Source: a virus (lineage: Duplodnaviria; Heunggongvirae; Uroviricota; Caudoviricetes). From it: a stretch of DNA of 19,378 nucleotides. Positions within the stretch are counted from its first letter, which is position 1, and each line of letters opens with the position of its first letter. Shown one piece after another: positions 1-17,336 of this stretch. Location of the stretch: positions 1 to 19,378 of the IMG/VR virus record IMGVR_UViG_3300029337_000248. One strand, given 5' to 3'. The notes under the pieces are model-generated. The model was not told the origin of the DNA. It did no database searches and saw nothing but the letters and a program-made list of their open reading frames with translations. The translations under genes were made by a program, and so were the position numbers.

Positions 1-258
1 ATGCAAACCGTTATTTTTGGTCGTCCGGGTTGCCCTTACTGTGTGCGTGCAAAAGATCTGGCTGAGAAATTGAGCAATGAACACGATGATTTTCAGTATC
101 ACTATGTAGATATTCGTGCGGAAGGGATCACTAAAGAAGATCTACAACAAAAGGCAGGTAAACCCGTAGAAACCGTGCCGCAGATTTTTGTCGATCAGCA
201 ACATATCGGCGGCTATACCGATTTTGCTGCATGGGTGAAAGAAAATCTGGACGCCTGA
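1..258 (+). CDS. grxA: Glutaredoxin 1
   Basis: 85 aa ORF with the CPYC active-site motif (GRPGCPYCVRAK); sequence recognised as E. coli glutaredoxin 1 from memory; complete from ATG at 1 to TGA. Confidence 0.95.
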   Translation: MQTVIFGRPGCPYCVRAKDLAEKLSNEHDDFQYHYVDIRAEGITKEDLQQKAGKPVETVPQIFVDQQHIGGYTDFAAWVKENLDA

Positions 259-267
259 TCGTCTGAC

Positions 268-300
268 AAGCCCTCGCGTTGAGGGCTTTACTGATTTTTT
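268..300 (+). terminator. Hairpin (AAGCCCTC-gcgtt-GAGGGCTT) followed by a T-run, lying between convergent grxA and ybjM; probable intrinsic terminator
   Basis: Perfect 8-bp inverted repeat at 268-288 with a 5-nt loop, T6 at 295-300; the T-run is several nt from the stem, so moderate confidence. Confidence 0.45.
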
Positions 301-665
301 CTGTGCTGTGGTTTAAACAAACTACTGATAAATAAGAAACACAGTGCCCCCAGCGCACACCAGAACACCGCACTTAATAACCATGCCAGCTCTTGCCAGA
401 ATGAGCGCGTCGGTGAAAAAAACAGCCGCATAATGAGCATCGAACAGGGTGCCGCCAGCATTGCGCCAAACAGAGGTTTCAGGACTTCTCTACGCTGTGA
501 AAAGAAGCTGGCGACTGCTCCAGGAAGAATGAAAAATAGCAAGCCGATTTCAGGATGCCCGGCAGCCCGAAAAGCGCCTTTCATGTGCGTCGCCAGAAAA
601 AGGCACACCACAATGAAGAGGACAAAACAGCAGATTGCCCCCGCCCAACGTTGTTTATGTTTCAC
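288..665 (-). CDS. ybjM: Inner membrane protein YbjM
   Basis: 125 aa hydrophobic ORF convergent with grxA; sequence (MKHKQRWAGAICCFVLF...) and position between grxA and ybjL match the E. coli ybjM locus as I recall it. Confidence 0.8.
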   Translation of the reverse strand: MKHKQRWAGAICCFVLFIVVCLFLATHMKGAFRAAGHPEIGLLFFILPGAVASFFSQRREVLKPLFGAMLAAPCSMLIMRLFFSPTRSFWQELAWLLSAVFWCALGALCFLFISSLFKPQHRKNQ

Positions 666-934
666 TCGTTCCTCCTGACACTGCGTCTATCGAACACATT
701 TTTCGCCAGTGTGGCGTTCAGTAAGATAAAGCCGCTTCGCATTCCATGCTAATATAGGCCAACGCAATTCATATAGCCGTTGATACCTAATGTGATTACA
801 CTAGTAAAATATATTGTTACTTTACTATCGTTTAGGTGCGCTGAATGAATCTGCGCCCTGAATTCTGGTAAAAAACATTATCGTAAATTACCATTTCTTT
901 CAACAGCTTACTAGTAAACAAGAAGTTAGCCTCC

Positions 935-2620
935 GTGAATATAAACGTCGCCGAATTGTTAAATGGGAATTACATTCTGTTATTATTTGTGGTCCTCGCG
1001 CTTGGGCTATGTCTCGGAAAGTTACGACTTGGTTCGATCCAACTGGGTAATTCCATTGGCGTTTTAGTCGTATCGCTGTTATTAGGCCAACAACATTTCA
1101 GCATTAACACCGATGCGCTTAATCTTGGCTTTATGCTGTTTATTTTCTGTGTTGGGGTTGAAGCCGGACCGAACTTTTTTTCCATTTTTTTTCGCGATGG
1201 GAAAAATTACCTAATGTTAGCACTGGTGATGGTTGGCAGTGCGCTGGTGATCGCCTTAGGGTTAGGTAAGCTGTTTGGCTGGGATATTGGCCTGACGGCC
1301 GGTATGTTAGCAGGCTCTATGACGTCGACACCGGTTCTGGTCGGTGCTGGCGATACACTGCGTCATTCCGGCATGGAAAGCAGGCAGCTCTCACTGGCAC
1401 TGGATAATCTGAGCCTCGGGTATGCCTTAACCTATTTAATCGGTCTGGTGAGTTTGATTGTTGGTGCGCGTTACTTGCCGAAATTGCAGCATCAGGACTT
1501 ACAGACCAGCGCCCAGCAAATCGCCCGCGAACGTGGCCTGGACACTGATGCCAACCGTAAGGTTTATTTACCGGTGATCCGCGCCTATCGCGTCGGCCCG
1601 GAGCTGGTGGCCTGGACCGACGGCAAAAATCTGCGTGAACTGGGTATTTATCGACAAACCGGCTGCTACATTGAACGTATTCGACGTAACGGGATTCTGG
1701 CAAATCCAGACGGTGATGCCGTGCTACAAATGGGCGATGAAATAGCGTTGGTAGGCTATCCCGACGCCCATGCCCGACTCGATCCCAGCTTCCGTAACGG
1801 TAAAGAAGTTTTCGATCGTGACCTTCTCGACATGCGTATCGTCACTGAAGAAGTGGTCGTTAAAAACCATAACGCTGTAGGTAAACGTCTCGCACAACTG
1901 AAGTTGACCGATCACGGTTGCTTCCTTAACCGCGTCATTCGTAGCCAGATTGAGATGCCGATAGATGACAACGTCGTGCTTAACAAAGGTGACGTTTTAC
2001 AAGTCAGCGGTGATGCCCGTCGCGTAAAAACCATCGCCGATCGCATCGGCTTTATCTCGATTCACAGCCAGGTCACTGACCTGCTGGCATTTTGCGCCTT
2101 CTTTGTTATTGGGCTGATGATCGGGATGATCACCTTCCAGTTCAGCACATTCAGTTTCGGCATGGGGAACGCTGCCGGGTTGTTATTCGCCGGAATTATG
2201 CTGGGCTTTATGCGTGCTAACCACCCGACCTTCGGTTACATTCCGCAGGGTGCATTAAGCATGGTGAAAGAGTTCGGCTTGATGGTGTTTATGGCAGGCG
2301 TTGGTCTGAGCGCCGGTAGCGGTATTAATAACGGCCTGGGCGCGATTGGCGGTCAGATGTTGATTGCCGGATTGATTGTCAGTCTGGTGCCCGTGGTTAT
2401 CTGTTTCTTGTTCGGTGCTTATGTATTGCGAATGAACCGCGCGCTGTTGTTCGGCGCAATGATGGGCGCACGTACCTGCGCGCCGGCAATGGAGATCATC
2501 AGTGATACAGCTCGCAGTAACATCCCGGCGCTGGGCTATGCGGGCACCTATGCAATCGCCAACGTCCTGCTGACGCTGGCAGGGACAATCATCGTCATGG
2601 TATGGCCAGGATTAGGATAA
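935..2620 (+). CDS. ybjL: Putative transporter YbjL (AAE-family membrane protein with central soluble domains)
   Basis: 561 aa ORF with N- and C-terminal hydrophobic halves flanking a soluble central region; sequence ([20 protein letters not shown]...) and synteny with ybjM-grxA recognised from memory. Confidence 0.9.
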
Positions 2621-2726
2621 AACTGAAGTTGCCCTGAAAATGAAATTTTTTTGCACAACCGCAGAACTTTTCCGCAGGGCATCAGTCTTAATTAGTGCCA
2701 CTGCTTTTCTTTGATGTCCCCATTTT

Positions 2727-2772
2727 GTGGAGCCCATCAACCCCGCCATTTCGGTTCAAGGTTGATGGGTTT
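2727..2772 (+). terminator. Intrinsic terminator downstream of ybjL; probably the last host-type feature before the prophage end
   Basis: Perfect 10-bp stem CCCATCAACC / GGTTGATGGG with a structured loop, followed by TTTTTTGTT on the + strand; no U-run in the minus-strand reading. Confidence 0.6.
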
Positions 2773-2855
2773 TTTGTTGCCTGAAATTTATACCTTTTAA
2801 AATCATGATGTTAGAAGCACTGCTTTTTAACGATGGCGACAAAATGGCGGCAGCG

Positions 2856-3074
2856 TCAAAGAGAGAGCGCCACCTGTCCTGATTTCATTGGATGCGGCTG
2901 AACCGGATTTGACTCTTTTGGCGTTGCAATCGAACGAACAAAAGTTTCATGGGTAACAAAAGTATGGCTGCAGTTAATGTTCTGGCACTGGTTGTAACGC
3001 TCTTTGGTCAATGAAGATACCTGAAAACTGCTGCGAGTATGGGCGGCACTTCCACACAGTGGGCAAATCATCAT
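2856..3074 (-). CDS. ogr: Ogr/B-family zinc-finger late-gene transcription activator
   Basis: ~72 aa product from the internal Met (MMICPLCGSAAH...ERYNQCQNINCSHTF) carrying the CPLC...CQN.NC zinc-finger pattern of P2 Ogr / 186 B; immediately downstream of D as in P2. GGGGAG lies ~10 nt upstream of the chosen ATG. Confidence 0.85.
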   Translation of the reverse strand: MMICPLCGSAAHTRSSFQVSSLTKERYNQCQNINCSHTFVTHETFVRSIATPKESNPVQPHPMKSGQVALSL

Positions 3075-3164: not shown

Positions 3165-4265
3165 TCATTCCATTTCGAAATCATCAATCCTCACTTCAAG
3201 CTCCAGACTGGTCGTAAAACCGTTATCCGGGCTGACGGTATGTGTCAGAGTCGTAATGGTCCATTCCGCATCATCTATCGGCTGTTTAAAACCACTGACT
3301 TTCACTGGCATTTCCGTGTAGAGATCTGCCCGACCTTCCGCCAGTTGTAGCGAGAATGACGCAACGCCGCGTTGCAGGCGTTCCCACTGCATTTTCGCCG
3401 CTCGTTCGGCGTTGCTCCGGTTGGCATAAGTGCGATTAAGTACCAGCACGTTTTCATCCGTACCCACCAGGTAATCGCCCTGCTTCGCTTCCGGCTCTTT
3501 CGTCTGCTTCTTAGTCCTGCGCTTACGCTTCACCGTGGTGCTTTCTTTCTTCGAGGGTTCGCGAGTATGCAACCAGCTGGCAATTACGCCCGTGTAAGCT
3601 CCGCGATCTGCCAGGGTAAAGCGGTGACTGTCGCCGTCCTTACGTGTGATAGTGATCACCGGTAGTGGTTTACCGCTGGCGCTTTTACCCTGTCCCTGTC
3701 GGATGAATAACAGATTGCCATTTTTCACCGACGCAATAGCACCGTACTGGCGCGCCAGCCGCATCAGAAAACTGCCGTCACTCTCATTGGTCTGGTCTAA
3801 ATGTTCCACGGTTTTATCTGACAGGTCTTTACCCAATGCCATCTTCAGTTTGTGCCGCGCAGCTATTTCCTTCACCACTTCCCCAACGGTGGTCTTGTGC
3901 CACGACTTTTCACGGCGGGTATTCAGCGTTTCACGAAAATCAGCACTTCGCGCCCGGATAGTCAGGCGGTCCGGTGCGCCAGTGTGTTCAATCTCGTCCA
4001 CCGTGAATGTCCCTTTCGGGAAAAGCGGCTGCCCCTTCCAGCCCAGCGCCAGCGTAATGACCGCACCACGGCGCGGCAGCACGATTTTTCCGTCGGCGTC
4101 GTCCAGCTCCAGATCAAGCTGGTCCGCTTCAAAGCCCCGATTGTCCGTCAGCGTCAAACTCATCAGGCGGTTATCCAGCACAGTGGTGATATCCCTGCCC
4201 TCAATACTGATGCTGAATGCGGGAGTTTTGTTGCCTTTGTTAAGCAGTTCAGAGCTGAAATTCAC
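3165..4265 (-). CDS. D: Phage late control / tail protein D (P2 gpD family)
   Basis: 366 aa ORF, the last gene of the T-U-D order, read on the minus strand; size and sequence character fit P2 gpD (recalled ~387 aa). Confidence 0.85.
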   Translation of the reverse strand: MNFSSELLNKGNKTPAFSISIEGRDITTVLDNRLMSLTLTDNRGFEADQLDLELDDADGKIVLPRRGAVITLALGWKGQPLFPKGTFTVDEIEHTGAPDRLTIRARSADFRETLNTRREKSWHKTTVGEVVKEIAARHKLKMALGKDLSDKTVEHLDQTNESDGSFLMRLARQYGAIASVKNGNLLFIRQGQGKSASGKPLPVITITRKDGDSHRFTLADRGAYTGVIASWLHTREPSKKESTTVKRKRRTKKQTKEPEAKQGDYLVGTDENVLVLNRTYANRSNAERAAKMQWERLQRGVASFSLQLAEGRADLYTEMPVKVSGFKQPIDDAEWTITTLTHTVSPDNGFTTSLELEVRIDDFEME

Positions 4266-4747
4266 GACAGCAGCCCTCCCACCGTTTTACTGATATCGCT
4301 TAAAGCAGACGTTGCCATGTCCTGCAGATTATTCAGTTGCGCACTGAGATCACCGAACATATCGGACAGGGATTCATCCACCCGTTTGAGCGACAGGGTG
4401 AACTCAATCCGGCGCGGCATACCGTCGCGGAAAAACTCCGTTTTAGTCTGATTCAGTCCCTCAATCACATACATGCCATAAATCGTGCCGCTGCCTTCAA
4501 TCAGGGGCCATGCTTTCCCCTGTTCTGCCATCTGCTCCAGCGCCAGCAGCGACAGCCTGCCACCTGTTATCTCCGGCATAAGAACACCGGAAAGCGTCAG
4601 CATGTCGTTGTCCGGTCCCAGAAACTGCGTGGACGGACGTCGGTTTACCCGGCTGTTTGCCGCATGTCGCCAGTTGCGTTGATACTGCAGCTCCTGATAC
4701 GGCACGGTGCGCAGCATAAACACGTACAATCCCAGCACCATCATCAT
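4262..4747 (-). CDS. U: Phage tail protein U (P2 gpU family)
   Basis: 161 aa ORF whose stop overlaps the D start by 4 nt (ATGA), between the T fragment and D; size matches P2 gpU (~160 aa). Confidence 0.85.
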   Translation of the reverse strand: MMMVLGLYVFMLRTVPYQELQYQRNWRHAANSRVNRRPSTQFLGPDNDMLTLSGVLMPEITGGRLSLLALEQMAEQGKAWPLIEGSGTIYGMYVIEGLNQTKTEFFRDGMPRRIEFTLSLKRVDESLSDMFGDLSAQLNNLQDMATSALSDISKTVGGLLS

Positions 4748-5448
4748 GCGTCGTATCCCCCCTGATCGCTGTAGTTACTCCTGGCTTTTGCCTTCAACCT
4801 GCGTTCACGTTCATCAAGCTGGCGGGCCACCTCCCGCGCAATATCCTGCGCACTTTGTCCTGGCTGCGTCTGGATGATGATCTGCGTCGGTGCCTCAATC
4901 CTGTAAACGGGCGGCACAGTGGCTGCGCGACTCACAATTGCTTCTCCACCTTTCGCGGGAAGTGCCAAAGGGTGCAACGGTGGAAGCTCTGCTGGTGCGG
5001 CAGCAACGCCCATCATTCCGGCAACAACGGCAGCCAGTGCAGCTGTATTTCTCCGGCTAGTCACATTTGCCGGGCCGTTAACAATTTCCGGCCCGTTTTC
5101 ACCGACGATGCCAAACTGCCCGCGCGGGATATACCCGCCGCTGTCATACATCCCCGCAAAGCCATATCCCCATGATGGAAAACCACCCGATGGCATCATC
5201 ACTTTACCGTCTGCATTCACCGTCGCAGGTTGCTGACGCGTCACGCTTTCCGGCAGTTTTGCCTTTGCGGCCTCTTTACTGACAATGCCGAGCTTCTCCA
5301 GCAACCAGGAAACGCCGGATTTCAGGGAGTCCAGCGGATGCATGACCATATTCAGCCCTTCCGCCAGTGCCTCCCCGAATCTCCGCCCCATTGCCGCTGC
5401 ACTCTGCAGTTCGGCAGAGGTCGACTTAACGGGCGTCAACCGTAACAA
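4744..5448 (-). pseudogene. T: Tail tape-measure protein T, C-terminal fragment only (5' part deleted)
   Basis: 234 aa ORF directly upstream of U in the T-U-D order; P2 gpT is ~815 aa from memory, and the reading frame runs straight into the terminase fragment on the opposite strand with no E/E' or other tail genes upstream. Confidence 0.7.
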
Positions 5449-6865
5449 AGGCCCGCGCCGTCAGCCGGAAAAGAACGTTTTCACCGATGAACAGATTGAG
5501 AAGCTGGAAGAAATCTTCCATTCCTCCATGTTCAACTACCAGCGCCACTGGTGGGAAGCCGGAAAAACCAACCGCATCCGCAACCTGCTGAAGTCACGCC
5601 AGATCGGCGCGACCTTCTATTTTGCCCGTGAAGCCCTGATTGACGCCCTGCTAACCGGGCGTAACCAGATTTTCCTTTCCGCCAGCAAGGCTCAGGCCCA
5701 CGTCTTTAAGCAGTACATCATCGACTTCGCCAAAGAAGTGGAGGTGGAGCTGAAAGGCGATCCGATGGTGCTTCCTAACGGGGCCACGCTTTACTTCCTC
5801 GGCACCAATGCCCGCACTGCCCAGAGTTATCACGGCAACCTGTATCTGGATGAATATTTCTGGATACCGAAATTCCAGGAGCTGCGCAAAGTGGCTTCCG
5901 GTATGGCTATTCACAAGAAATGGCGACAAACCTATTTTTCCACGCCATCCAGCCTGACTCATAGTGCTTATCCGTTCTGGTCCGGTGCGCTGTTCAACCG
6001 TGGGCGCAACAAAGCCGATAAGGTGGACATCGACCTGTCCCACAGCAATCTGGCCCCCGGCCAGCTGTGCGCCGACGGGCAATACCGCCAGATAGTCACC
6101 GTGGAAGATGCGGTGCGCGGCGGCTGTAACCTGTTCGACCTTGACCAGTTGCGCATGGAGTACAGCCCGGACGAATACCAGAACCTGCTGATGTGCGAGT
6201 TTGTGGACGATCTCGCGTCCGTGTTTCCGCTCAGCGAGCTGCAGGCGTGCATGGTGGACAGTTGGGAAGTCTGGACCGACTTTCATGCTCTGGCCCTGCG
6301 CCCATTTGGCTGGCGCGAAGTGTGGATCGGTTATGACCCGGCAAAAGGTACGCAGAACGGCGACAGCGCCGGATGCGTGGTGGTGGCACCGCCAGCCGTG
6401 CCAGGCGGTAAGTTTCGCATTCTCGAGCGTCACCAGTGGCGCGGGATGGACTTCCGTGCCCAGGCGGACGCAATCAAAAAACTGACCGAGCAGTACAACG
6501 TGACCTACATCGGCATCGACTCAACCGGCGTTGGTCACGGGGTTTACGAGAACGTGAAAGCGTTCTTTCCTGCCGTCCGGGAGTTTGTCTACAACCCCAA
6601 CGTTAAAAACGCCCTGGTACTCAAGGCCTACGACATTATCAGCCACCGCCGTCTGGAGTTTGACGCCGGACACACCGACATAGCGCAGTCCTTTATGGCA
6701 ATCCGTCGCTCCACCACCGCCAGTGGCAACCGCCCGACCTATGAAGCCAGCCGCAGCGAAGAAGCCAGCCACGCCGATCTGGCATGGGCAACGATGCACG
6801 CACTGTTTAACGAACCGCTGCAGGGCGAATCCGCCAATACCAGCAATATTGTGGAGATTTTTTGA
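5449..6865 (+). pseudogene. P: Terminase large (ATPase/nuclease) subunit P, N-terminally truncated
   Basis: ORF 5285-6865 translates to a terminase-like protein (C-terminal nuclease-type segment ...YIGIDSTGVGHG...) and is followed by portal Q with a 4-nt overlap. Its first ~55 codons overlap the T fragment on the other strand, so the homologous part starts near 5450-5475, well short of the ~590 aa I recall for P2 gpP. Boundary is approximate. Confidence 0.7.
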
Positions 6866-7890
6866 TGGGAAAGAGTAAGAAAAACCGCGCAGCGGCGATG
6901 AATCAGATCCAGCATAAAAGCCAGACTTCAGCCGAAGCATTCAGCTTCGGCGATCCCGTTCCTGTTCTGGACCGTCGCGAACTGCTGGACTATGTGGAAT
7001 GCGTACAGATGGACCGCTGGTATGAGCCGCCTGTGAGTTTCGACGGCCTGGCGCGAACATTCCGCGCCGCCGTACACCACAGCTCACCGATTGCAGTAAA
7101 GTGCAACATTCTGACCAGCACCTATATCCCTCACCCACTGCTCAGCCAGCAGGCTTTTTCACGTTTTGTGCAGGACTATCTGGTATTTGGTAACGCCTAC
7201 CTGGAGAAACGCACGAACCGCTTCGGTGAAGTTATCGCCCTTGAACCTGCGCTGGCAAAATACACCCGACGCGGGTTAGACCTGGATACCTACTGGTTTG
7301 TGCAATACGGCATGACTACGCAGCCGTATCAGTTCACGAAAGGCAGCATCTTTCATCTGATGGAACCGGATATCAACCAGGAGATCTACGGCCTGCCCGG
7401 TTATCTTTCTGCCATTCCGTCAGCCCTGCTCAACGAGTCCGCCACGTTGTTCCGCCGTAAGTATTACATCAACGGCAGCCATGCAGGCTTCATCATGTAC
7501 ATGACCGATGCCGCGCAGAATCAGGAGGATGTGAACAACCTCCGCAACGCGATGAAAAGCGCCAAAGGTCCAGGCAACTTCCGCAACCTGTTTATGTACT
7601 CACCTAACGGCAAAAAAGACGGGCTTCAGATCATCCCATTGTCAGAAGTCGCGGCGAAGGATGAATTTCTTAACATCAAGAACGTGAGTCGGGATGACAT
7701 GATGGCAGCGCACCGCGTGCCGCCGCAAATGATGGGGATTATGCCGAATAATGTTGGGGGGTTTGGGGATGTGGAGAAAGCAAGTAAAGTGTTTGTACGA
7801 AACGAACTTATACCATTACAAAAACGCTTAGGAGAGATAAATGAATGGCTTGATAAAAAAATAATAGAATTTGAAATATATTCATTCTGA
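6862..7890 (+). CDS. Q: Portal (capsid vertex) protein Q
   Basis: 342 aa ORF immediately downstream of P with overlapping stop/start, matching the P-then-Q order and ~344 aa size of P2 gpQ. Confidence 0.85.
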   Translation: MMGKSKKNRAAAMNQIQHKSQTSAEAFSFGDPVPVLDRRELLDYVECVQMDRWYEPPVSFDGLARTFRAAVHHSSPIAVKCNILTSTYIPHPLLSQQAFSRFVQDYLVFGNAYLEKRTNRFGEVIALEPALAKYTRRGLDLDTYWFVQYGMTTQPYQFTKGSIFHLMEPDINQEIYGLPGYLSAIPSALLNESATLFRRKYYINGSHAGFIMYMTDAAQNQEDVNNLRNAMKSAKGPGNFRNLFMYSPNGKKDGLQIIPLSEVAAKDEFLNIKNVSRDDMMAAHRVPPQMMGIMPNNVGGFGDVEKASKVFVRNELIPLQKRLGEINEWLDKKIIEFEIYSF

Positions 7891-7974: not shown

Positions 7975-8472
7975 TCACTTTAAGAATTTTTTCTGATAAG
8001 ACTCATCAATTAGAGATTTAATTATTTTCGCCCTTTTTGACACTAATACACTAATTCTTGTCCTTTGACTTTTATCATACTCCTGTGCTTTTTCAATATT
8101 AGATGTAGCATCTTTGAATAAATCAGCAATCAAAGGTTTATAGTCACCTTCGATATTAATGCGTTGTTTTAGATGATTCAACCACCGCTCGGTCTCCGCA
8201 AGAAGTGCTGTTATCTCATTTTGAAATGACATTGCATCAATTTCTTTTGAATCTCCCGGTATCCAAAACTTTCTTGATGCAGATTCAATTTCCTTTAAAT
8301 TATCTGAAACATTTTTTACAATTGCCCATGTTTCACTCCTCTTTTGCAACGCACGGGAGTTTCTATAAACAAAAACCCAACCAATCAAGGCTGTTAGAAT
8401 TGCAATCACACCTGAACTAGCAAGGTATTGTAATAACCGCAGATAAACCGGAAGTTCATCCATGAACATCAC
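7975..8472 (-). CDS. Single-pass membrane protein of unknown function (candidate effector), third gene of the cargo operon
   Basis: 165 aa ORF; one predicted transmembrane helix near the N-terminus (LLQYLASSGVIAILTALIGWVFVY), then a charged, likely helical domain; start overlaps the stop of the upstream gene by 4 nt; AT-rich codon usage. Confidence 0.75.
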   Translation of the reverse strand: MMFMDELPVYLRLLQYLASSGVIAILTALIGWVFVYRNSRALQKRSETWAIVKNVSDNLKEIESASRKFWIPGDSKEIDAMSFQNEITALLAETERWLNHLKQRINIEGDYKPLIADLFKDATSNIEKAQEYDKSQRTRISVLVSKRAKIIKSLIDESYQKKFLK

Positions 8473-8789
8473 TCCTTTTTAGCATCAGAAATATATCCCC
8501 ATATACTATCCTTGAGGAAATCCAAATCAGTAAATATTTTTAATTTTTTCCTAATTATAGCTTTATCTATATTATTTGTTCTATAAAGTCCACCAAACGC
8601 CTCTTCCAAGAATGAAGAACCATAACCCATAGCACCATCAAGGTACACGTGCACCTCATCATAATCTTGGATGGCTTTCAAAAGATACTTTTCACGGAAA
8701 CGTTGTCCATTATCAGGACCATCCTCATCATAGCGGCCATAGGGAACATCTGAAAAATCTTCAGCAACATGTATCTCTTTGATTTTCAT
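8469..8789 (-). CDS. Small acidic protein, candidate STAS-like (anti-sigma-antagonist-like / DUF4325-like) partner, second gene of the cargo operon
   Basis: 106 aa ORF translationally coupled (4-nt overlaps) to both neighbours. Size and a ...LDGAMGYGSSFLEEAF... segment with adjacent serines resemble the phosphorylatable region of STAS/SpoIIAA-like proteins. The family call is by eye and tentative. Confidence 0.7.
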   Translation of the reverse strand: MKIKEIHVAEDFSDVPYGRYDEDGPDNGQRFREKYLLKAIQDYDEVHVYLDGAMGYGSSFLEEAFGGLYRTNNIDKAIIRKKLKIFTDLDFLKDSIWGYISDAKKE

Positions 8790-9853
8790 TCAGCACCTCT
8801 CAAACTTACATTCCATTGAATAAGGGTTCCACCTATGGAGTATGGCAGATCAAATTTATCTTCAACATTATTTTCAGCATCATAAGAATATCGTCCCATT
8901 CCACTAAAAATATGTAACTGCCCCTCAGGGTTATCTACAACATACCTTTTCATATCAGGTAATCCTTTACCATGCTTCTGACTATTCATTCTTGTCTCAC
9001 CATACTGTACAGCCGCGAATATTTTATCAGAATCCGTCTTAGGATTAAATATCTGAGCGATAAATGTGAAAAAGTCTTTTTTAACCAATGTAACTGGGAT
9101 ACCTTCTCCCATATCATACACCATCAAAAATAGTTGTTCTTCGACTTTGTGTGCCAATATCCACCATCTTTTACCAATGTCCTCAATAAATTCAGAGAAC
9201 TGTTCTTCATTTGAATACGCATGTAGACCAACATTGCTAATAGATTCAGTTAAGGCTGCATATAATTTCACACCATCCGAAGCGGAAATCTTACCTTCAT
9301 AAATGGTATCTTTTATATAACGTAGAATATTTTTAATTTTTTGTCTTGCTTCGGCACTTTCATGATCATCTCTAGTTTTGCCTGCAACAGCGGAAACAAT
9401 TTCCATTGAATTAAGCTTATCTGCAGCTATACGCTGAAACCCTGTAATCCCCCAAATACCACATATTTTAAACCAGTTATTTGCCCTGGATGAACCGCAC
9501 GTAGTAATAGAAATTATATTTTTATCTTTTGTTTGCCTTTGTAAAAAGTCAATATGTGCATACAATACGATTACTGCACATGCTTTCAGAGATTTTGTAT
9601 TTCTGAAATCTATTAAAATTTTCTCACCATCATTGATGTAATCTCTGATTAAAGTGATAAACTCTATAAATAGTTTGTAATTTTTAGTATTAAATAAGTC
9701 CAATGACGCAGGCGCGGGTATTCTCACACGAGAGAATACCCGCATGGGCTGTAGCATCCGTCTTCCACCAGAAAGCTTTCTTGACTCCCGCTTCGCAATC
9801 TTCCTTGCTCTGATCAAAGAATGTTCAATTTGTTCTTCAGTTAGCCGCTTCAT
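8786..9853 (-). CDS. GHKL-type (histidine-kinase-like / anti-sigma-kinase-like) ATPase with an unassigned ~190 aa N-terminal domain, first gene of the cargo operon
   Basis: C-terminal half carries Bergerat-fold motifs in order: N-box TESISNVGLHAY (E-x3-N-x3-H-[GA]-Y as in SpoIIAB/RsbW), G1 box YDMGEGIP (DxGxG), G2 box HGKGLPD, G3 GGTLIQW. Start placed at the internal Met (MKRLTEEQ...) because GAGGAAAGG precedes it; the longer ORF reaches 9898. Confidence 0.75.
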   Translation of the reverse strand: MKRLTEEQIEHSLIRARKIAKRESRKLSGGRRMLQPMRVFSRVRIPAPASLDLFNTKNYKLFIEFITLIRDYINDGEKILIDFRNTKSLKACAVIVLYAHIDFLQRQTKDKNIISITTCGSSRANNWFKICGIWGITGFQRIAADKLNSMEIVSAVAGKTRDDHESAEARQKIKNILRYIKDTIYEGKISASDGVKLYAALTESISNVGLHAYSNEEQFSEFIEDIGKRWWILAHKVEEQLFLMVYDMGEGIPVTLVKKDFFTFIAQIFNPKTDSDKIFAAVQYGETRMNSQKHGKGLPDMKRYVVDNPEGQLHIFSGMGRYSYDAENNVEDKFDLPYSIGGTLIQWNVSLRGAE

Positions 9854-10000
9854 ATCCTTTCCTCGATAGTTGTTGAAGCTTATCAGTTCACGCAACAACT
9901 ACAAACATCTACCTGCTATCTTAAAGCAACAATTTGAAAGAACATTGAAAATCATAGTATCTGTTTGTAAACAAACGACTGTTTCTATACCTTGCGCGCG

Positions 10001-10019
10001 CTCGTATCCCCGCCACGCC
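10001..10019 (-). other. cos-like cohesive-end site
   Basis: Minus-strand reading GGCGTGGCGGGGATACGAG; the first 12 nt match the cohesive-end sequence I recall for 186 (GGCGTGGCGGGGAAAGCAT) and P2 (GGCGAGGCGGGGAAAGCAC). Located in the A-to-Q interval where cos is expected. Confidence 0.6.
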
Positions 10020-10050
10020 TGCCCGCTTTATGTAGTAGTTTTCATGCACC

Positions 10051-10151
10051 TGCATGACATGAGCAAAAGCCCGCCAGTTCTGGCATGTCTTAGCCAAACC
10101 GATCCTCAAACGATCATGCGAACCCATGCAGCATAGACATGCATGACATGA
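10051..10151. repeat. Direct repeats of TGCATGACATGA (10051-10062 and 10140-10151) flanking cos, within a CATG-rich cluster
   Basis: Two exact 12-bp copies 89 bp apart, read directly from the sequence; TGGCATGTC also occurs twice (10081-10089 and 10252-10260). Confidence 0.7.
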
Positions 10152-11793: not shown

Positions 11794-11823
11794 GTTCCCT
11801 TATCAAGTCCTAACGAAACAAGC

Positions 11824-12010
11824 TCAACTGATTACATCCATCGACCTACTGTATTCATGGCTTCGAATTTTCGCCATCAACTCATCAGTCAATTCAGAAA
11901 CCCACTGCAGAGCTAGCCCCTTCTCTTCATCACTACACTCACTAGCCGCTACAAGCTTAAGAAAAAAATCAATGCGCTGGAGCTTCAAAGACTCCAAAAA
12001 ATAGTCCTGC
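11824..12010 (-). CDS. Small hypothetical protein (62 aa) downstream of replication gene A
   Basis: Strong RBS (AGGAGGAAAG) directly before ATG (MQDYFLESLK...); the track ORF extends to 12114 but lacks an RBS at its first Met. Sits where P2 carries orf91/tin/old. Confidence 0.6.
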
Positions 12011-12165
12011 ATCTTTCCTCCTATAACACCATACGCAATACTGTACATATAACCACTGTTTATATTTACAGTATATAATAATCTTACTGATGTAAAACGT
12101 TTTTTTACGTTCATCAGCCTGATATGCCTGGTATTATTAAGAGCACGAATTGTTAACCCGCGTGA

Positions 12166-14580
12166 TTAATACAGGTTCCGCCACTTATCATCTTCCTGCA
12201 AACGCTGGTTCCGATAGAAGATACGCAGGCCTGCTCCTGACGGAATACTGCCACCGCAAAGGAGCAAATCGACCTCTTTCTCGCTGCCATCAAATCCTCT
12301 GGACTTCAGTTCATAGACGAGCTGCTGACGCTGATACTCTGTAATTCGCTGTTTGTAGTCTTTACGCCGTTTCGGTTTAACCAGGCGCAATCTTGCTGCC
12401 AGTTCCCGGCGCTCTTTTTTGCTCATACTGTGCAGGTAATCGTGCAATTCCTTGTCATCCATGCAGGTAATGTCCGTTCTGGTATCCCCATCTGCTGATT
12501 CATCTTTCTCATGTTGGTTCAAATTTTCAGCAAGGGGACAGTTATTGCCACGAGTCCAAGGGGCGCAAGCGCCCTGGTCGGCTGCCGCCTCCTGAACGTC
12601 AACGGCTTTACGAACCATTTTCCACTTCACTGCATGAGTGCAGATCTTGCCCTCTGCAATGGGTGACCAGATGCCATAAATACGAATGCCGTGATCGCCA
12701 TAGGCGGTCGGCTCTTCGTTGATTTCATAAGCGGTTCTGATGAGGTGATATTTACGGGGAACCAGTACGCCGCCCTGTTTCATGATGTAGGTGGCAAAAC
12801 AACCAGCATCAGCAGCAGCCAGAATGGCATCAAGACGCGGGTTATCCAGTACCGGCGCACCTGCTTTTTTGTCACCCTGTTGCCTTGCCGCCTGACCAGC
12901 CAGCAAGCGAAGTTCACGGTAAGCCTGACGCCCCGGAATACCAAAGAAGCGGAATTGCTGAACACGATGCAGAGACGCCCAGGCATTCACGTATTCAGCG
13001 TTATCACGCAGAGATTTACCCGTTTCCTTGCTGATCTCGCCAACCAGACCACGACCGTCAATGTTCTTACTGATATATTTCGCGATGTAGCTTGTCGGCG
13101 TTCCTTTGCGCGGGTTAATCAACTCAGACTTAAAGCGCGGCCCAGTGTTATTGCCCAGCTCCTCGCGGTCTTCACGGATGGCAAACTTACGCAGTAATGC
13201 AGTGATGGCACGGCGGTCTTTTTTGCGCATGAAACACAACAGGTGCCAGTGAACTGTGCCATCATGATGCGGCTCAGCCACCCGCACGCCATACCAGCGC
13301 AACCCGGCTTTGTGCATCGCCTTACGAAATGCAGCAAACATGCCGACCAGATAATCGCTGCTTTGTCTTACCGTCGCGTTTGTCCAGGTCGGGTTTGGTC
13401 TGCCGTTATTTAGCGTGGAATGGAAACGCGACGGACAGGTGATAGTGTAGAAAACGGCGCAGTCACCGCGCATTTCCGCGATAAGCTCCAGACCTTTAAC
13501 ACAGGCCATCATCTCATTGCGGCGATGCGCAGGGTTGCTGCTGCTGGCGTTTACCACATCCTCCATGTCCAGCGTGTCGCCGTCTTCGTTCACCAGTTCA
13601 TGAGAACGGAAAAACTCCAGCGACTTACGGCGCTGCTCACGTTTATGCATCACGGCTTCATAGCTGACATAAGGAGATGCTTTTTTGCTGACCAGGCAAA
13701 CAGCGCGCAACTGCTCTTCCCGCCATTCGCAACGCATCTTCCATAATTTCCGATACCACCAGTCGGCGCACAACATACGCGCCAGCGAACCCGGAATGAG
13801 TTCATAGGGCACGGGTTTGCGGCGGTTTCTTTTCCGACGGAGTTGCTCAAACGCAGGTGGGATGACATCCAGACGCAGGGTTTCCGCTGCCACCTTTTCC
13901 CATGTCTTGCGGATTTCTTCTGGCTTAACGTCATCGGTGGCATACAAATCACCACAAGCTGCATCAAGGCACATACTCATATGCGCAGCTACCAGGGTGG
14001 ACAGGCGTTTCACCTGATCCTGACTCATTTCAGGCAGGATCAGCAGGCCGTCCAGCCCTTCATGGCTTGCCATAAAGCGAAAAGATGCAGATAGCTGACT
14101 GTCGCGTACATGCTCCAGTCGTTCCAGACATGGCTTAATCGTCTCACGTAAATAGCGGGAATAAGCCTTTGGCCTGCCCAGGCTGCTGAAGTATTCAATA
14201 CGTTGCATCAGCGGCTTGCTGATATGGGAAGGCTGGGCGTTGACGTCCGCCAGAATGACCATGTCTGAATTAAAACGCTGCTGCTCATGCGCCAGCTTTG
14301 CCCGGCTAATGAGCTTATCCTGCTCCATTTCGCGCTGGACAGGATCACGTGATTCATTAAAGAAATAACGCTCCCAGACCTGATCACTCAGTGCCTCGCG
14401 GCGCAACTGTTCCTGCTCGTTATCGGCAGCGTACAGAGTGATCAGGTTTGAAAGCGTAGAAACCGGCGCAACTTCCGCCGGGTCCAGATAAGGGTTAATG
14501 GCCTTTTTCGGGCTGTTCCATGAGAATGCTGCGGCAGCCTCGTTAAAGCCGCAGCAGTTGTTCATATCGGCATGACTCAT
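12166..14580 (-). CDS. A: Replication initiation protein A (rolling-circle replication endonuclease, P2 gpA / 186 A family)
   Basis: 804 aa ORF containing the rolling-circle active-site tyrosine motif ([16 protein letters not shown]); position at the end of the early operon matches P2/186. Confidence 0.9.
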
Positions 14581-15434
14581 GCACGTACTCCGTACACGGC
14601 AGAACTATCCACGCCACGCGAATAATCAAATCCCATCCAGCAGCGCGGCCCGGAAACAGCAATGATTTCTGTTGCTGATTTACCCTCGCCAGCTGCCACA
14701 CCGATGCTGCGTTTTACCTTGATATAGTGGTGAGTAAAATTGCGATACAGCGAACGGATCAGGGATGTGTCACTGTTAGAAACAATGACCGGATGTCCTT
14801 CTGATGACCGATGTTCAAGAACGGATGCCAGGTGATACTGGTCATCTTCAGTGAAACCATCAGTGTGATAACCGGAAAACGTACCGTCATATGGCGGATC
14901 GCAATACACCACATCTCCCGCCTTCAACATCGTCAGCGTTTCATCAAAGCTGGCGCAGATAAACGTTGCTCGCTGGGCTTTTTCTGCAAATGTGCGAAGT
15001 TCTTTTTCAGGGAAATACGGATTTTTATAATTACCGTAGGGAATGTTGAAATGCCCGCTCTTGTTATAGCGACATAAACCACGGTAACCGTGACGATTGA
15101 GATACAGGAAATATACCGCTTTCATGAAATCAGTAATTTCAGTTGAGCAGTTAAACTCCTGCCTTATGTTGTAATAAGCCACCTCCCTGTTTGCGATCTC
15201 AAATAAAACTCTGGCGCGAGATATAAACGATTCACAATCAGCGGCAACCTTTTTATAGAGGTTGATTAAATCAGGATTAATATCCGCAACCAGATAGCTG
15301 GGATAATCCGTTTCCATCATCACAGCACAGGAACCCGCGAAAGGTTCAACCAGTCGCGGGCCAGCAGGAAGGTATTTTTTCAGTTCTGGCATAATGGCGG
15401 TTTTATTTCCCGCCCATTTCAGGATGGTGCTCAT
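14577..15434 (-). CDS. DNA adenine methyltransferase (Dam-like, N6-adenine class)
   Basis: Motif I region ILKWAGNK...FAGSCAV and catalytic DPPY ([10 protein letters not shown]). Start set at the internal Met (MSTILKW...) preceded by GGAGGTG; stop overlaps the A start (ATGA). Confidence 0.85.
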
Positions 15435-15658
15435 ACAGCACCTCCGTTGTAATGTTTGCCTTTCAGTTCTGCGATTTCCTGACAGGTAATGCAAAGCTGC
15501 ACTCCCGGAATGGCGCGGCGTCGTGCTGGCGGAATTGGCGCTTCACATTCAATGCAAAGTACGCGTGACACGCCCGGTGATTTGGCACGGGCTGCACGGA
15601 TATGGCGCTGGCGTTCTTCTTCAACGCGCTGCTGTACGAGATCCATTGCATCAGCCAT
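15431..15658 (-). CDS. TraR/DksA-family C4 zinc-finger protein
   Basis: 75 aa with CxxC...CxxC (CIECEAPI...CITCQE); a small protein of this type is typical of the P2/186 early region; stop overlaps the Dam start. Confidence 0.75.
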   Translation of the reverse strand: MADAMDLVQQRVEEERQRHIRAARAKSPGVSRVLCIECEAPIPPARRRAIPGVQLCITCQEIAELKGKHYNGGAV

Positions 15659-15897
15659 TAGTGGATCTCCTGCGCTTCGTTCTGGATTGCTTCAGCAGTC
15701 ACGCGCAGCAGTTCTGCCGCTTCCACGTGGTTTAGCTGGCGGGATGAGATATAACACGCCAGGCTATCAAGGCGAGCAGCCATTGCTTCAGCCCTTGCCC
15801 GGCGTTCTTCCAGACGAGCCTCTGTCAGTAAAATATTAAGCCCTGCGTCATCCGGTCCGGTTTTAGTCATGAGGGTTTCAATATTACGCATAATCAA
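15658..15897 (-). CDS. Hypothetical phage early protein (79 aa)
   Basis: ORF in operon register with its neighbours in the early (minus-strand) operon; no recognisable motif. Confidence 0.55.
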   Translation of the reverse strand: MIMRNIETLMTKTGPDDAGLNILLTEARLEERRARAEAMAARLDSLACYISSRQLNHVEAAELLRVTAEAIQNEAQEIH

Positions 15898-15958
15898 TTC
15901 TCCTGAATTTAGATAAAGGGATGCCCGGCGGGTTTACGCCATTAATTTCATTAGTTGG

Positions 15959-16300
15959 TTAATTCGGCATGGTTAGCCGTCTGGGAAATAAGCTCACCAC
16001 TGCACGAAAATGATTCATTGCTTTAATCAACTCCCGCTTTTCGTCAGTGGTCAGCTCATTAATGCTGATGCTATGACGTTCAGCTGGAATTTTTGCCATA
16101 AAGAATATGGCAGCCAGTGCCCTTTTATTTTGTTCATTATTGATATCCCATGGATCACGCATATCTTTAATAAACCGCTCAAGCTCTGACTCAATATTCA
16201 GGCCAAAAACTTTCGCCCTTAACTCCGCAATGTGATTAAGTCCATTCAGGCGTTCACCGGGGCTTAATGGAACAGTTGCTGCAGTGCCTTCAATAGCCAT
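15959..16300 (-). CDS. Hypothetical phage early protein (113 aa)
   Basis: ORF with GGGGGA RBS ~6 nt upstream of ATG; lies where 186 carries early genes such as fil/dhr, but no specific assignment is possible by eye. Confidence 0.6.
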   Translation of the reverse strand: MAIEGTAATVPLSPGERLNGLNHIAELRAKVFGLNIESELERFIKDMRDPWDINNEQNKRALAAIFFMAKIPAERHSISINELTTDEKRELIKAMNHFRAVVSLFPRRLTMPN

Positions 16301-16464
16301 TTGTTCCCCCGTTTTTTCGTAGATAGTTCTGCCAGCAATTCATCTTGTGAACGGCACGGATGCCAGCGTTTACCATCCTCCCCCATGATCCAGCCGTGAC
16401 CGTAATGCATTGCCGGGCTTTGTTTAACCAGCAGCGATGCAAATGATGGTTCTTTCGTCAGCAT
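16264..16464 (-). CDS. Hypothetical phage early protein (~66 aa)
   Basis: Start placed at the internal Met (MLTKEPSF...) preceded by GAGGTG, which avoids overlap with the cII stop; the track ORF extends to 16494. Confidence 0.5.
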   Translation of the reverse strand: MLTKEPSFASLLVKQSPAMHYGHGWIMGEDGKRWHPCRSQDELLAELSTKKRGNKWLLKALQQLFH

Positions 16465-16471
16465 AAGCACC

Positions 16472-16981
16472 TCACAGCAAACCAAATGAAGCACCGAGGC
16501 CAGTCACGGTATCAACTGCACTCGCCATCGCAGGATTAGCCTGTAAACGGGCCTGCAATGAAACAGCCGCCAGCGCCATCAGTCGTGTTACAGAGTTAAT
16601 GCTGCTGATAGCATCACGACGACCGGCACAGGTTTTTACATCGCCAGACACCGCACCTGCAGCAACACGCCCGATCTCTGCGGTTGCACTCATGACGTAA
16701 TGTGGCAGTTTCTCTTTTGCCACCTCATTAATCGGTACACATGGCAGACAATGAATCTGTGCCAGAAAACCATCTACCAGCGTTGAATCTTCAGTCAGAT
16801 CGGTAAGCAGCCAGATTTCTGGTGCGGTTAATAAATGAGGCTGAGCTGGGTTCAGCTTGTTCCGCAGAATCTGCACATTCATGCCTGCACGTTCTGCCAG
16901 TTGCACCAGATTGTGGCGCAGTGCAAATGCACGACAGGCTTCATCAAAATGTGGATGTTTGGAAACTTGGTAATCAAACAT
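16472..16981 (-). CDS. cII: CII-like lysogeny establishment activator (186 CII family)
   Basis: 169 aa from the Met at 16981 ([19 protein letters not shown]...); length and sequence closely match 186 CII as I recall it; AGAGG RBS 7 nt upstream. Confidence 0.85.
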
Positions 16982-17013
16982 GGTCAATGCCTCTGATGTA
17001 TTTCAGAATCGAA

Positions 17014-17235: not shown

Positions 17236-17307
17236 GATGCAACATTCCTCGTTTAATGATGATTAATCAGGACGAATACGGATCGTTTGTATTTTGTGAA
17301 CACCATA

Positions 17308-17336
17308 AACATACGATCGCACAGTGAAATCGTCAA
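17308..17336 (-). promoter_or_regulatory. Candidate early lytic promoter (pR-like) for apl-cII
   Basis: Minus-strand TTGACG - 17 nt - TATGTT in the cI/apl intergenic region, oriented toward apl. Confidence 0.4.

What the first reader, a model, noticed from the sequence alone, without database searches (positions are those of the whole stretch)
4744..6865. Head-to-head fusion of a tape-measure fragment and a truncated terminase: one deletion removed the whole morphogenesis cluster
In P2 the leftward Q-P operon and the rightward O-N-M-...-T-U-D operon diverge from the P/O promoter region. Here a C-terminal T fragment (minus strand) abuts an N-terminally shortened P (plus strand) at about 5448-5475 with no promoter region and no scaffold, capsid, small-terminase, lysis, tail-fibre, baseplate or sheath/tube genes. 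A single deletion from within P to within T explains the layout. The prophage cannot make particles on its own.
Basis: partly seen in the sequence, partly recalled or inferred. Interest (0 to 1): 0.5.

Follow-up and report, generated by a model that had tools for sequence, protein, structure and literature searches.

The report
Deletion scar in defective 186/P2-like prophage
This is the seamless scar of a ~15.4-kb deletion that removed all head, lysis and tail genes from a P2/186-like prophage next to E. coli ybjL; it is an ordinary defective prophage, but its two breakpoints recur with other partners in related genomes.

Summary
Window 2665-19378 is a 186/P2-like prophage integrated next to E. 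coli ybjL, about 95% identical to the intact Klebsiella phage 4LV2017. The window aligns to that phage in two blocks that abut at window 5437/5438. One block carries ogr, D, U and the last 231 codons of tape-measure gene T on the minus strand. The other carries terminase gene P, lacking its first ~97-113 codons, plus a complete portal gene Q on the plus strand.

About 15,386 bp are missing: the P N-terminus, the P/O promoter region, genes O to E, and 77% of T. The join has 2 bp of microhomology (CA), no inserted DNA and no promoter-like site. None of the 20 late genes from O to E occurs anywhere in the window.

The early region, the cos-like site and the cargo genes look intact. The same junction is present in two independent public assemblies.

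This is common prophage decay. At least 172 of 5,426 complete E. coli genomes carry similar but different deletions at this site.

One point is unexplained: the window's breakpoints, and several others, recur with different partners. Whether one event or several made this junction cannot be settled.

The parts
1..2664 (.). E. coli chromosomal flank: grxA (1-258 +), ybjM (288-665 -), ybjL aspartate:alanine antiporter (935-2620 +)
   Evidence: 100% identity to many E. coli chromosomes annotated grxA, ybjM and ybjL. ybjL carries the Pfam domains Asp-Al_Ex and TrkA_C.
2665..2855 (.). Right end of the prophage (attR side), between ybjL and ogr
   Evidence: Homology to phage 4LV2017 starts at window 2665, which corresponds to the end of that record. 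The exact att core was not mapped.
2856..3074 (-). ogr, the zinc-finger activator of late genes, intact (72 aa)
   Evidence: Pfam Ogr_Delta, E 7e-22. 100% identity to 4LV2017 Ogr. The exact protein is listed in 71,578 blocks of the assembly collection.
3165..4265 (-). gpD (tail/baseplate hub, 'late control D'), intact (366 aa)
   Evidence: Pfam Phage_GPD. Full-length tblastn match, residues 1-366, 96% identity.
4262..4747 (-). gpU tail protein, intact (161 aa)
   Evidence: Pfam Phage_P2_GpU, E 2e-44. tblastn residues 1-161, 98% identity.
4744..5438 (-). T': the 3' 695 nt of tape-measure gene T, i.e. residues 795-1025 of 1025. It has lost its N-terminal 77% and its promoter.
   Evidence: BLASTP 226/231 identities to residues 795-1025. 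blastn window 2665-5438 matches reference 33540-30767. PHROG tape-measure profiles match only at their C-terminal end.
5437..5438 (.). Deletion junction. The dinucleotide CA is shared by both parental sequences. There is no filler DNA and no IS element.
   Evidence: Three-way alignments to 4LV2017. Alignments to same-lineage parental sequences, L012 for T and L006 for P. T parent ...GGGCGTCA|GCAGATC; P parent ...CGTCGCCA|ACCGTAAC; window ...GGGCGTCAACCGTAAC.
5439..6865 (+). P': terminase large subunit gene lacking its first ~97 codons (reference numbering) or ~113 codons (588-aa E. coli form). The ATPase and nuclease domains are retained; the N-terminal helix-turn-helix domain and the late promoter are lost.
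   Evidence: BLASTP to residues ~98-572 of 572 at 97% identity. Pfam Terminase_6N and Terminase_6C are complete. Full-length relatives additionally carry PF06056 Terminase_5 at the N-terminus.
5285..5438 (+). Accidental upstream extension of the P' reading frame into antisense T sequence. This makes the mechanical ORF 526 aa long.
   Evidence: Translation. Homology to gpP begins only at ORF residue ~52. No promoter-like site nearby. Public gene calls start P' at the ATG at 5528, giving 445 aa.
6865..7890 (+). gpQ portal protein, intact (341 aa)
   Evidence: Pfam Phage_portal. tblastn residues 1-341, 94% identity. The identical protein occurs in intact prophages and in several other deletion alleles.
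7975..9898 (-). Three-gene cargo cluster between Q and cos: 165-aa protein, DUF4325 (STAS-like) protein, and a 370-aa protein with a weak GHKL-ATPase match. This is context, not part of the scar.
   Evidence: Pfam. PHROGs of unknown function. No PADLOC or NCBIfam hit. The same position holds unrelated cargo in relatives.
9994..10142 (-). Conserved non-coding block containing a cos-like site (GGCGTGGCGGGGATACGAG at 10001-10019, minus strand)
   Evidence: Aligns across the circularised cos junction of phage 186, 53/68 identities, E 3e-12. The block is conserved in all relatives while its flanks vary.
11823..19378 (.). Early region, apparently intact: gpA replication endonuclease (12166-14580 -), Dam methylase, DUF5347, CII (16472-16987 -), CI repressor (17355-17930 +), integrase (ends at 19378 +)
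   Evidence: Pfam. Full-length tblastn matches to the A, Dam, CII and Int proteins of 4LV2017.

Best explanation
The region is the scar of illegitimate (microhomology-level) recombination inside a 186/P2-like prophage integrated next to E. coli ybjL.

SHOWN. DNA corresponding to about 15.39 kb of an intact relative is missing. The missing stretch runs from codon ~98 of terminase gene P, through the divergent P/O promoter region, through scaffold, capsid, small terminase, head completion, lysis, tail completion, baseplate, fibre, sheath, tube and chaperone genes, to codon ~795 of tape-measure gene T. The two truncated genes are joined 5'-end to 5'-end at a shared CA dinucleotide.

INFERRED. All four Ogr-dependent late promoters of the P2 type (upstream of P, O, V and FI) lay in the deleted interval. 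T'-U-D and P'-Q are therefore promoterless relics, and the element cannot build capsids or tails, package DNA or lyse the cell.

What remains is a ~16.8-kb cryptic prophage with apparently intact integrase, CI/CII immunity, gpA replication, a cos-like site, portal, ogr and variable cargo genes. The fragments are still open reading frames because the event is recent, not because they are functional: same-lineage relatives have no nucleotide differences from the window in P'-Q or in T'.

Whether the junction arose in one step, or by enlargement of an earlier smaller deletion that already had the P-side breakpoint, is not resolved.
For: Two abutting blastn blocks to the intact phage 4LV2017: window 2665-5438 matches reference 33540-30767, and window 5434-7823 matches reference 15380-12991.

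Base-level junction with CA microhomology and no filler.

Protein alignments: T' is residues 795-1025 of 1025. P' is residues ~98-572 of 572.

Profile hits are truncated at the expected ends.

All 20 late genes O to E are absent from the window. No promoter-like site is found at 4600-5800.

The same junction occurs in two separate assemblies, ERZ925903 and ERZ27227238.

Intact prophages carrying the identical portal protein sit at the same ybjL site (L007, L008, L011, L013, L014).

Recency: L006 carries a full-length P with 0 mismatches to window 5440-6865. L012 carries a longer T' with 0 mismatches to window 2665-5436.

RefSeq annotates the equivalent fragments in strain FCI51 as pseudogenes 'missing N-terminus'.
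Against: Nothing contradicts the deletion reading. Four uncertainties remain.

- The parental sequence is inferred from relatives, not observed.
- 'Single event' is not demonstrable. L034, L035 and L037 share the P-side breakpoint joined to M, holin and lysozyme sequences respectively. L003 and L039 share the T-side breakpoint joined to other partners.
- Silence of the fragments is inferred from the absence of promoter consensus, not measured.
- A helper prophage elsewhere in the genome cannot be excluded from this window.
Confidence: 0.93

Rival explanations
1. Stepwise origin. The junction was made by at least two successive deletions rather than one. For example, an ancestor that already had the P-side break joined to a nearer partner (as in L034: P15376|M18315) was later enlarged out to T30767. 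Alternatively, an FCI51-like junction lost a further 30 bp between CGTCAAC and CGCCAAC.
For: L034 has 0 mismatches to the window over 2,452 bp of P'-Q and the same P-side break, joined to gene M. L035 and L037 have that break joined to holin and lysozyme sequences. The FCI51 junction equals the window junction plus 30 bp flanked by a 6/7 direct repeat. Multi-junction remnants such as L034, L035, L037 and L040 show that decay often proceeds in several steps.
Against: A secondary deletion would have to end exactly at the earlier junction, which is improbable by chance. FCI51 differs from the window by SNPs 5 bp from the junction on one side and 37-56 bp on the other, so it is not a close ancestor. 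L012, whose prophage sequence is identical to the window's, has a non-nested junction (T30537|P14638). Independent events in one lineage therefore do occur.
Confidence: 0.3
2. Preferred breakage sites. P15378 and T30751-30767 are preferred sites of DNA breakage or template switching in this phage family, and the window junction is simply the direct joining of two such sites.
For: P15376-15380 is joined to four different partners. T30751-54 is joined to three partners and T30765-67 to three. D32926, P14846, P15406 and P14638 are each re-used as well. Some sharers have clearly diverged flanks: 69-86 mismatches in 2,774 bp, with SNPs within 5-8 bp of the junction.
Against: No cause was found. There are no Chi sites. 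There is no similarity to the att core. There are no unusual hairpins. The junctions do not fit Gin/Cin-type crossover sites. No IS element interrupts the site in the 60 complete genomes inspected. Extended homology does not single out the partner. The look-ups by exact 445-aa and 215-aa products pre-select breaks lying just upstream of those start codons, and some sharing may be identity by descent.
Confidence: 0.3
3. Selected mini-phage. The architecture is selected rather than decayed. A roughly half-genome element keeps int, immunity, ori/gpA, cos, portal and ogr, and is mobilised by a helper 186/P2-like phage, for example packaged as a dimer.
For: The element keeps a cos-like site, gpA, int and CI. 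It is about 52% of the inferred intact length. Identical prophage sequence occurs in hosts whose flanks differ.
Against: Related remnants show every intermediate size. Some have lost cos, Q and A, such as L022 (A7866|T31406). Some have lost the early region, such as L012. So there is no size or content constraint. No capsid-size or helper-exploitation genes are present. All ORFs found are ordinary 186-type genes or cargo.
Confidence: 0.04
4. Assembly artefact. The join is a chimeric contig rather than real DNA.
For: The only full-length identical record is a metagenome-assembled contig (L005), which may be the window's own source.
Against: The identical junction is present in a second, independent assembly (L041, ERZ27227238). 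A 2-bp overlap cannot create a false k-mer join. Closely similar junctions occur in finished chromosomes, for example FCI51 and the W5-6 type.
Confidence: 0.02

Closest known systems
Klebsiella phage 4LV2017 (Peduoviridae, Elveevirus; NC_047818) and coliphage 186
   Same: Gene order and about 95% nucleotide identity across ogr-D-U-T', P'-Q, gpA-Dam-CII and int. 186-type early genes: CI, CII/CP76, Fil, DUF5347 and gpA. A cos-like site that aligns with 186 cos.
   Different: Lacks reference 15381-30766, i.e. all head, lysis and tail genes except D and U. Carries a different CI allele and different cargo on both sides of cos: a GHKL-like/DUF4325 cluster and a DUF6694 gene, where 4LV2017 has a retron.
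Cryptic P2-like prophage remnants of E. coli, such as the ogr-D remnant of K-12 (recalled from Slettan et al. 1992, J Bacteriol, not re-read here). More generally, defective prophages formed by internal deletion (Asadulghani et al. 2009, PMC2669165, listed but not read)
   Same: Retention of ogr and adjacent tail-gene fragments at the attR end. Loss of morphogenesis genes. Truncated genes annotated as pseudogenes.
   Different: This remnant is much younger and larger, about 16.8 kb. Its early region, cos, portal and cargo still look intact, and the truncated genes have no frameshifts.
Sister deletion alleles at the same ybjL site: FCI51 (T30767|P15406), W5-6 type (T30751|O15935), WCHEC020031 type (D32925|P15406), TUM3755 type (D32707|P14848) and others
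   Same: Same integration site and same overall outcome, with ogr brought within 3.5 kb of P'/Q. Found in at least 172 of 5,426 complete genomes. Microhomologies of 1-7 bp.
   Different: Different breakpoint pairs. The window's exact junction is absent from the 5,426 complete genomes but present in two other assemblies. The cargo next to Q differs (PIN, TIR, HIRAN, DUF262, TIGR02391, P-loop NTPase).
P4-type and other phage satellites
   Same: Small integrated element with integrase and cos that could in principle be packaged by a P2-type helper.
   Different: The genes that define P4 (alpha, sid, psu, delta, epsilon) were not searched for directly, and none turned up among the window's ORFs. 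Its replication and immunity genes are ordinary 186-type genes collinear with complete phages. It is a deletion derivative, not a satellite lineage.

Membership tests
P2/186-like temperate phage (Peduoviridae) prophage | Characteristic genes and order: ogr-D-U-T at the right end, with divergently oriented P-Q (terminase, portal) | tested here: met
   Pfam Ogr_Delta, Phage_GPD, Phage_P2_GpU, Terminase_6N/6C and Phage_portal. Collinear with 4LV2017.
P2/186-like temperate phage (Peduoviridae) prophage | High nucleotide identity to a classified member | tested here: met
   95-97% identity over 2.8, 2.4, 4.5 and 1.1 kb blocks to NC_047818.
P2/186-like temperate phage (Peduoviridae) prophage | gpA rolling-circle replication protein and 186-type CI/CII control region | tested here: met
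   Phage_GPA E 6e-128, Phage_CI_repr plus Phage_CI_C, Phage_CP76. Phage_186_Fil in the public gene calls of the identical contig.
P2/186-like temperate phage (Peduoviridae) prophage | P2/186-type cos site | tested here: met
   Window ~9991-10058 aligns across the circularised 186 cos junction, 53/68 identities, E 3e-12. 13 of the 19 overhang bases are identical in an unbroken run. Cleavage itself is not testable here.
P2/186-like temperate phage (Peduoviridae) prophage | Complete morphogenesis and lysis module (O to T) | tested here: not met
   tblastn finds none of the 20 proteins O to E. T is present only from residue 795 and P only from residue ~98. The element is therefore a defective member.
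Defective (cryptic) prophage formed by internal deletion | Integrated in the chromosome at a site that also hosts intact relatives | tested here: met
   Host genes grxA, ybjM and ybjL flank the element. 1,105 of 5,426 genomes have ogr next to ybjL. Intact prophages with the identical portal occur at the same site.
Defective (cryptic) prophage formed by internal deletion | Seamless junction between non-adjacent phage sequences, with truncated genes on both sides | tested here: met
Defective (cryptic) prophage formed by internal deletion | Inability to produce particles or lyse the cell | not testable with these tools
   Inferred from gene content only.
Microhomology-mediated illegitimate recombination product | Short (1-10 bp) identity at the join, no long repeat, no IS element, no site-specific recombination core | tested here: met
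   2-bp CA microhomology. The surrounding imperfect similarity is not the best-scoring match in the P region. No similarity to the att core. No Chi sites.
P4-like or other phage satellite | Satellite-specific genes (primase-helicase alpha, Sid/Psu capsid-size genes, delta/epsilon) and an independent lineage | not tested
   No search for P4 alpha, sid, psu, delta or epsilon was run. Indirect evidence only: the larger ORFs scanned with Pfam, about 20 of the 97 ORFs of at least 50 aa, were 186-type genes or cargo of unknown function, and the backbone is collinear with complete phages.

The most novel reading that the evidence does not exclude
The deletion endpoints in this phage family may not be random. 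Specific positions are re-used with many different partners in diverged lineages: in P (reference 15376-15380, 15406, 14846, 14638), in T (30751-30767) and in D (32926). This would imply an unrecognised site-preferential breakage or template-switch process that repeatedly guts these prophages. The window junction would then be two such sites joined directly.
Probability: 0.25. Interest if true: 0.5.

Novelty: new member of a known kind. Interest (0 to 1): 0.2.

Why it matters
For this window it settles the annotation. T' and P' are pseudogene fragments. The 526-aa ORF is a fusion artefact. The element is a cryptic prophage that probably still confers immunity and carries cargo genes at a position that varies between relatives, but it cannot be a source of virions on its own.

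More broadly, the ybjL site holds a large natural series of deletion alleles of one phage family, in at least 172 of 5,426 complete E. coli genomes. That series could be used to study how, how fast and where prophages are inactivated. It could also show whether the recurrent breakpoints reflect a mechanism or only shared ancestry.

Tried and rejected
- Exact-junction scans with GTCGACTTAACGGGCGTCAAC found nothing in the GTDB species representatives or the JGI metagenome contigs.
- A look-up of the mechanical 526-aa ORF found nothing, because gene callers start P' at 5528.
- RecBCD/Chi-limited resection as the cause of clustered endpoints: rejected, because no Chi site occurs in either orientation in the phage.
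- Integrase action at secondary att sites: no resemblance of the break sites to the att core.
- Extended homology between T and P guiding the join: the CGACTTAA-containing similarity is real but is not the best match in the P region.
- Gin/Cin-type invertase quasi-sites: relatives L026 and L031 carry such an invertase, with sites TTCTCGCATACC-TT-GGTTTAGGAGAA. However, several T-side junctions lose the GG of GGTTTAC, so the cleavage position does not fit.
- Hairpin-promoted slippage: DNA folding around six recurrent sites is no more stable than shuffles, z from -1.25 to +0.79.
- IS insertion in P as an anchor: none among the 60 best of 1,043 complete genomes with an intact P/O region. This was a limited test.
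- Half-genome size constraint (dimer packaging): weakened by smaller, larger and multi-junction alleles and by remnants that lost cos.
- Naming the cargo genes: no PADLOC or NCBIfam hit, and only PHROGs of unknown function.
- Two literature searches found no description of this allelic series.
Full report
**What the window is.**
Positions 1-2664 are E. coli chromosome carrying grxA, ybjM and ybjL, 100% identical to many strains. From 2665 to the end of the window at 19378, which is the stop codon of an integrase gene, the sequence is a P2/186-like prophage.

Pfam identifies the following genes:
- Ogr (2856-3074, minus)
- gpD (3165-4265, minus)
- gpU (4262-4747, minus)
- a terminase large subunit (ORF 5285-6865, plus)
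- a portal (6865-7890, plus)
- gpA (12166-14580, minus)
- a Dam methylase
- DUF5347
- CII/CP76
- a 186-type CI repressor (17355-17930, plus)
- the integrase

The best complete reference is Klebsiella phage 4LV2017 (NC_047818, 33,540 bp, Peduoviridae). Its annotated map runs int - CI - CII - dam - A - cargo - Q - P | O N M L X lysis R S V W J I H G FI FII E E' T U D ogr.

**Checking the observation.**
blastn of the window against that phage gives two blocks that abut. Window 2665-5438 matches reference 33540-30767 at 95.6% identity. Window 5434-7823 matches reference 15380-12991 at 95.1%.

Base-by-base comparison shows the tail-side match holding up to window 5438 and the head-side match from 5437 onward. 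I repeated this with parental sequences of the same lineage: L012, which keeps 230 bp more of T, and L006, which keeps a full-length P.
- T parent: ...GGGCGTCA|GCAGATC
- P parent: ...CGTCGCCA|ACCGTAAC
- Window: ...GGGCGTCAACCGTAAC

The join is therefore at 5437/5438, with the dinucleotide CA common to both parents and no inserted base.

The 234-aa ORF at 4744-5448 aligns to residues 795-1025 of the 1025-aa tape-measure protein, 226/231 identical. Its TTG 'start' at 5448 lies beyond the junction.

The 526-aa ORF at 5285-6865 resembles gpP only from its residue ~52, corresponding to gpP residues ~98-572 of 572 at 97% identity. Its first ~50 codons are antisense T sequence.

Full-length E. coli relatives have a 588-aa P with an N-terminal PF06056 helix-turn-helix domain that is missing here. 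PHROG profiles agree: tape-measure profiles match only at their C-terminal ends, and terminase profiles only from position 106 of 374 or 166 of 548 onward.

No promoter-like site lies in 4600-5800. tblastn with all 4LV2017 proteins finds none of the 20 late proteins O to E anywhere in the window.

The deleted interval corresponds to reference 15381-30766, about 15,386 bp. The only adjustment is that the junction lies 10-37 bp to the left of the stated 5448-5475.

**Is it real DNA?**
A metagenome-assembled contig (ERZ925903, L005) is 100% identical to the window over 17,890 bp. It may be the window's source. An independent assembly (ERZ27227238, L041) carries the identical join. Finished chromosomes carry closely similar joins. 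A 2-bp overlap cannot create a false assembly join.

**What it does.**
In P2-type phages the late genes are transcribed from Ogr-dependent promoters upstream of P, O, V and FI. This is established knowledge of the family and was not tested here. All of those positions fall in the deleted interval, so T'-U-D and P'-Q are promoterless relics.

The element lacks scaffold, capsid, small terminase, lysis, baseplate, fibre, sheath and tube genes. I infer that it cannot form particles or lyse its host.

What remains is about 16.8 kb:
- an apparently intact early region
- a cos-like site at 10001-10019, inside a conserved 149-bp block that aligns across the circularised 186 cos junction (53/68 identities, E 3e-12)
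- ogr
- the portal
- cargo genes of unknown function on both sides of cos

The truncated genes have no frameshifts because the event is young. L006 has a full-length P with 0 mismatches to window 5440-6865. L012 has 0 mismatches to window 2665-5436.

**Population context.**
The ybjL site is a frequent home of this phage family. In 1,105 of 5,426 complete E. coli genomes ogr sits next to ybjL. In at least 172 of them ogr lies within 3.5 kb of P'/Q, meaning the morphogenesis cluster is gone. Consistent with this, 1,223 genomes match the P/O region but only 1,043 have it intact.

None of the complete genomes has the window's exact junction. I mapped 12 large-deletion alleles against the reference, listed here as tail side | head side:

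| Allele | Tail side | Head side |
|---|---|---|
| window | 30767 | 15380 |
| FCI51 | 30767 | 15406 |
| W5-6 type | 30751 | 15935 |
| L006 | 31582 | 15746 |
| L010 | 31474 | 15430 |
| L012 | 30537 | 14638 |
| L009 | 32928 | 14638 |
| VE-V10-F | 30186 | 14845 |
| MB7671 | 32281 | 16638 |
| TUM3755 | 32707 | 14848 |
| EC261 | 31635 | 14846 |
| WCHEC020031 type | 32925 | 15406 |

Microhomologies are 1-7 bp. Look-ups by exact protein found further remnants:
- L034: P15376|M18315 plus K19848|D32926
- L035: P15378|holin19281 plus 20741|26298
- L036: J23686|T30753
- L037: P15377|K19536 plus lysB20559|T30754
- L039: M17995|T30765
- L040: 20265|22210 plus J23686|T30753
- L022: A7866|T31406

Decay of this prophage is thus frequent, multi-step and varied. 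RefSeq already labels such fragments as pseudogenes. That makes the finding an ordinary one.

**An unexplained side observation.**
Breakpoints recur.
- The window's P-side break (15376-15380) is joined to T, M, holin and lysozyme sequences in different assemblies.
- The T-side region 30751-30767 is joined to P (twice), O, M, lysB and J.
- D32926 is joined to P15406, P14638 and K19848.
- P14846 is joined to T, U and D.

Some sharers are close relatives. Window versus L034 shows 0 mismatches in 2,452 bp, so identity by descent with later one-sided enlargement is possible. Others are clearly diverged: 69-86 mismatches in 2,774 bp, and SNPs within 5-8 bp of the join. L012, identical in prophage sequence to the window, has a non-nested junction.

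Part of the clustering comes from how I searched. Look-ups by the 445-aa and 215-aa products select breaks lying just upstream of those start codons.

I tested and found no support for Chi-limited resection, att-like cores, guiding homology, invertase quasi-sites, hairpins or an IS anchor (a limited test). The cause stays open.

**Single event or several?**
One deletion between P15378 and T30767 is sufficient and is the simplest account. A stepwise route through an allele that already had the P-side break, or through an FCI51-like junction followed by a 30-bp slippage between CGTCAAC and CGCCAAC, cannot be excluded. FCI51 itself is too diverged near the junction to be the ancestor.

**A selected 'half-genome' mobilisable element?**
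I considered this reading because the remnant keeps cos, ori, int and immunity and is about 52% of the intact length. Relatives of every size, including some that lost cos or the early region, argue against any such constraint.

**Verdict.**
It is a recent, seamless deletion scar in a defective 186/P2-like prophage: one more member of a well-known kind, of low general interest. The recurrent breakpoints are a modest lead for anyone studying prophage decay.

Noticed in passing
window 5437-5438; loci L003, L004, L009, L012, L017-L021, L034-L041: Both breakpoints of the window junction, and several others in P, T and D, are re-used with different partner sites in other assemblies of this phage family. 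Some of those assemblies have diverged flanks. The cause is unknown and could be preferred breakage sites, shared ancestry or ascertainment.
   Followed up: partly
window 7975-9898 (minus strand): Three-gene cargo cluster between portal gene Q and cos: a 165-aa protein, a DUF4325/STAS-like 106-aa protein, and a 370-aa protein with a weak GHKL-ATPase match. It has no hit in PADLOC or NCBIfam. Relatives carry PIN, TIR, HIRAN, DUF262, TIGR02391, P-loop NTPase or retron genes at the same position, so this looks like a variable, possibly anti-phage, cargo slot.
   Followed up: partly
window 10470-11756 (plus strand): Second cargo slot on the other side of cos: a DUF6694 protein (292 aa) and a 99-aa protein. 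In relatives these are replaced by DinI-like plus other small genes or by a DUF4145 gene.
   Followed up: no
window 9994-10142, core 10001-10019 (minus strand): A conserved 149-bp non-coding block with a cos-like sequence, GGCGTGGCGGGGATACGAG. In this lineage cos lies about 2.1 kb from the end of Q, with cargo in between. In phage 186 it is about 170 bp from the portal gene.
   Followed up: partly
window 5285-6865 (plus strand): The P' reading frame stays open for 154 nt into antisense T sequence and picks up an ATG, giving a chimeric 526-aa ORF. Public gene calls instead use the ATG at 5528 (445 aa). Automated annotation could mistake either for a complete terminase.
   Followed up: yes
L012 (GCA_038744155.1), locus 15148-17279: A relative whose prophage sequence is identical to the window's has a different P/T junction. 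It also has a second deletion that removed part of gpA and the whole early region through the integrase, leaving host genes directly adjacent.
   Followed up: partly
L026 and L031, locus ~400-2930: Some intact relatives at the same site carry a Gin/Cin-type serine invertase. It is associated with an invertible tail-fibre segment flanked by 27-bp inverted sites (TTCTCGCATACCTTGGTTTAGGAGAAG).
   Followed up: partly
window 1-2700 versus E. coli genomes: Several strains have an IS1A insertion in the grxA-ybjM-ybjL flank. The single Chi site of the window (1603) lies in ybjL, and the ~17 kb of prophage in the window has none.
   Followed up: no
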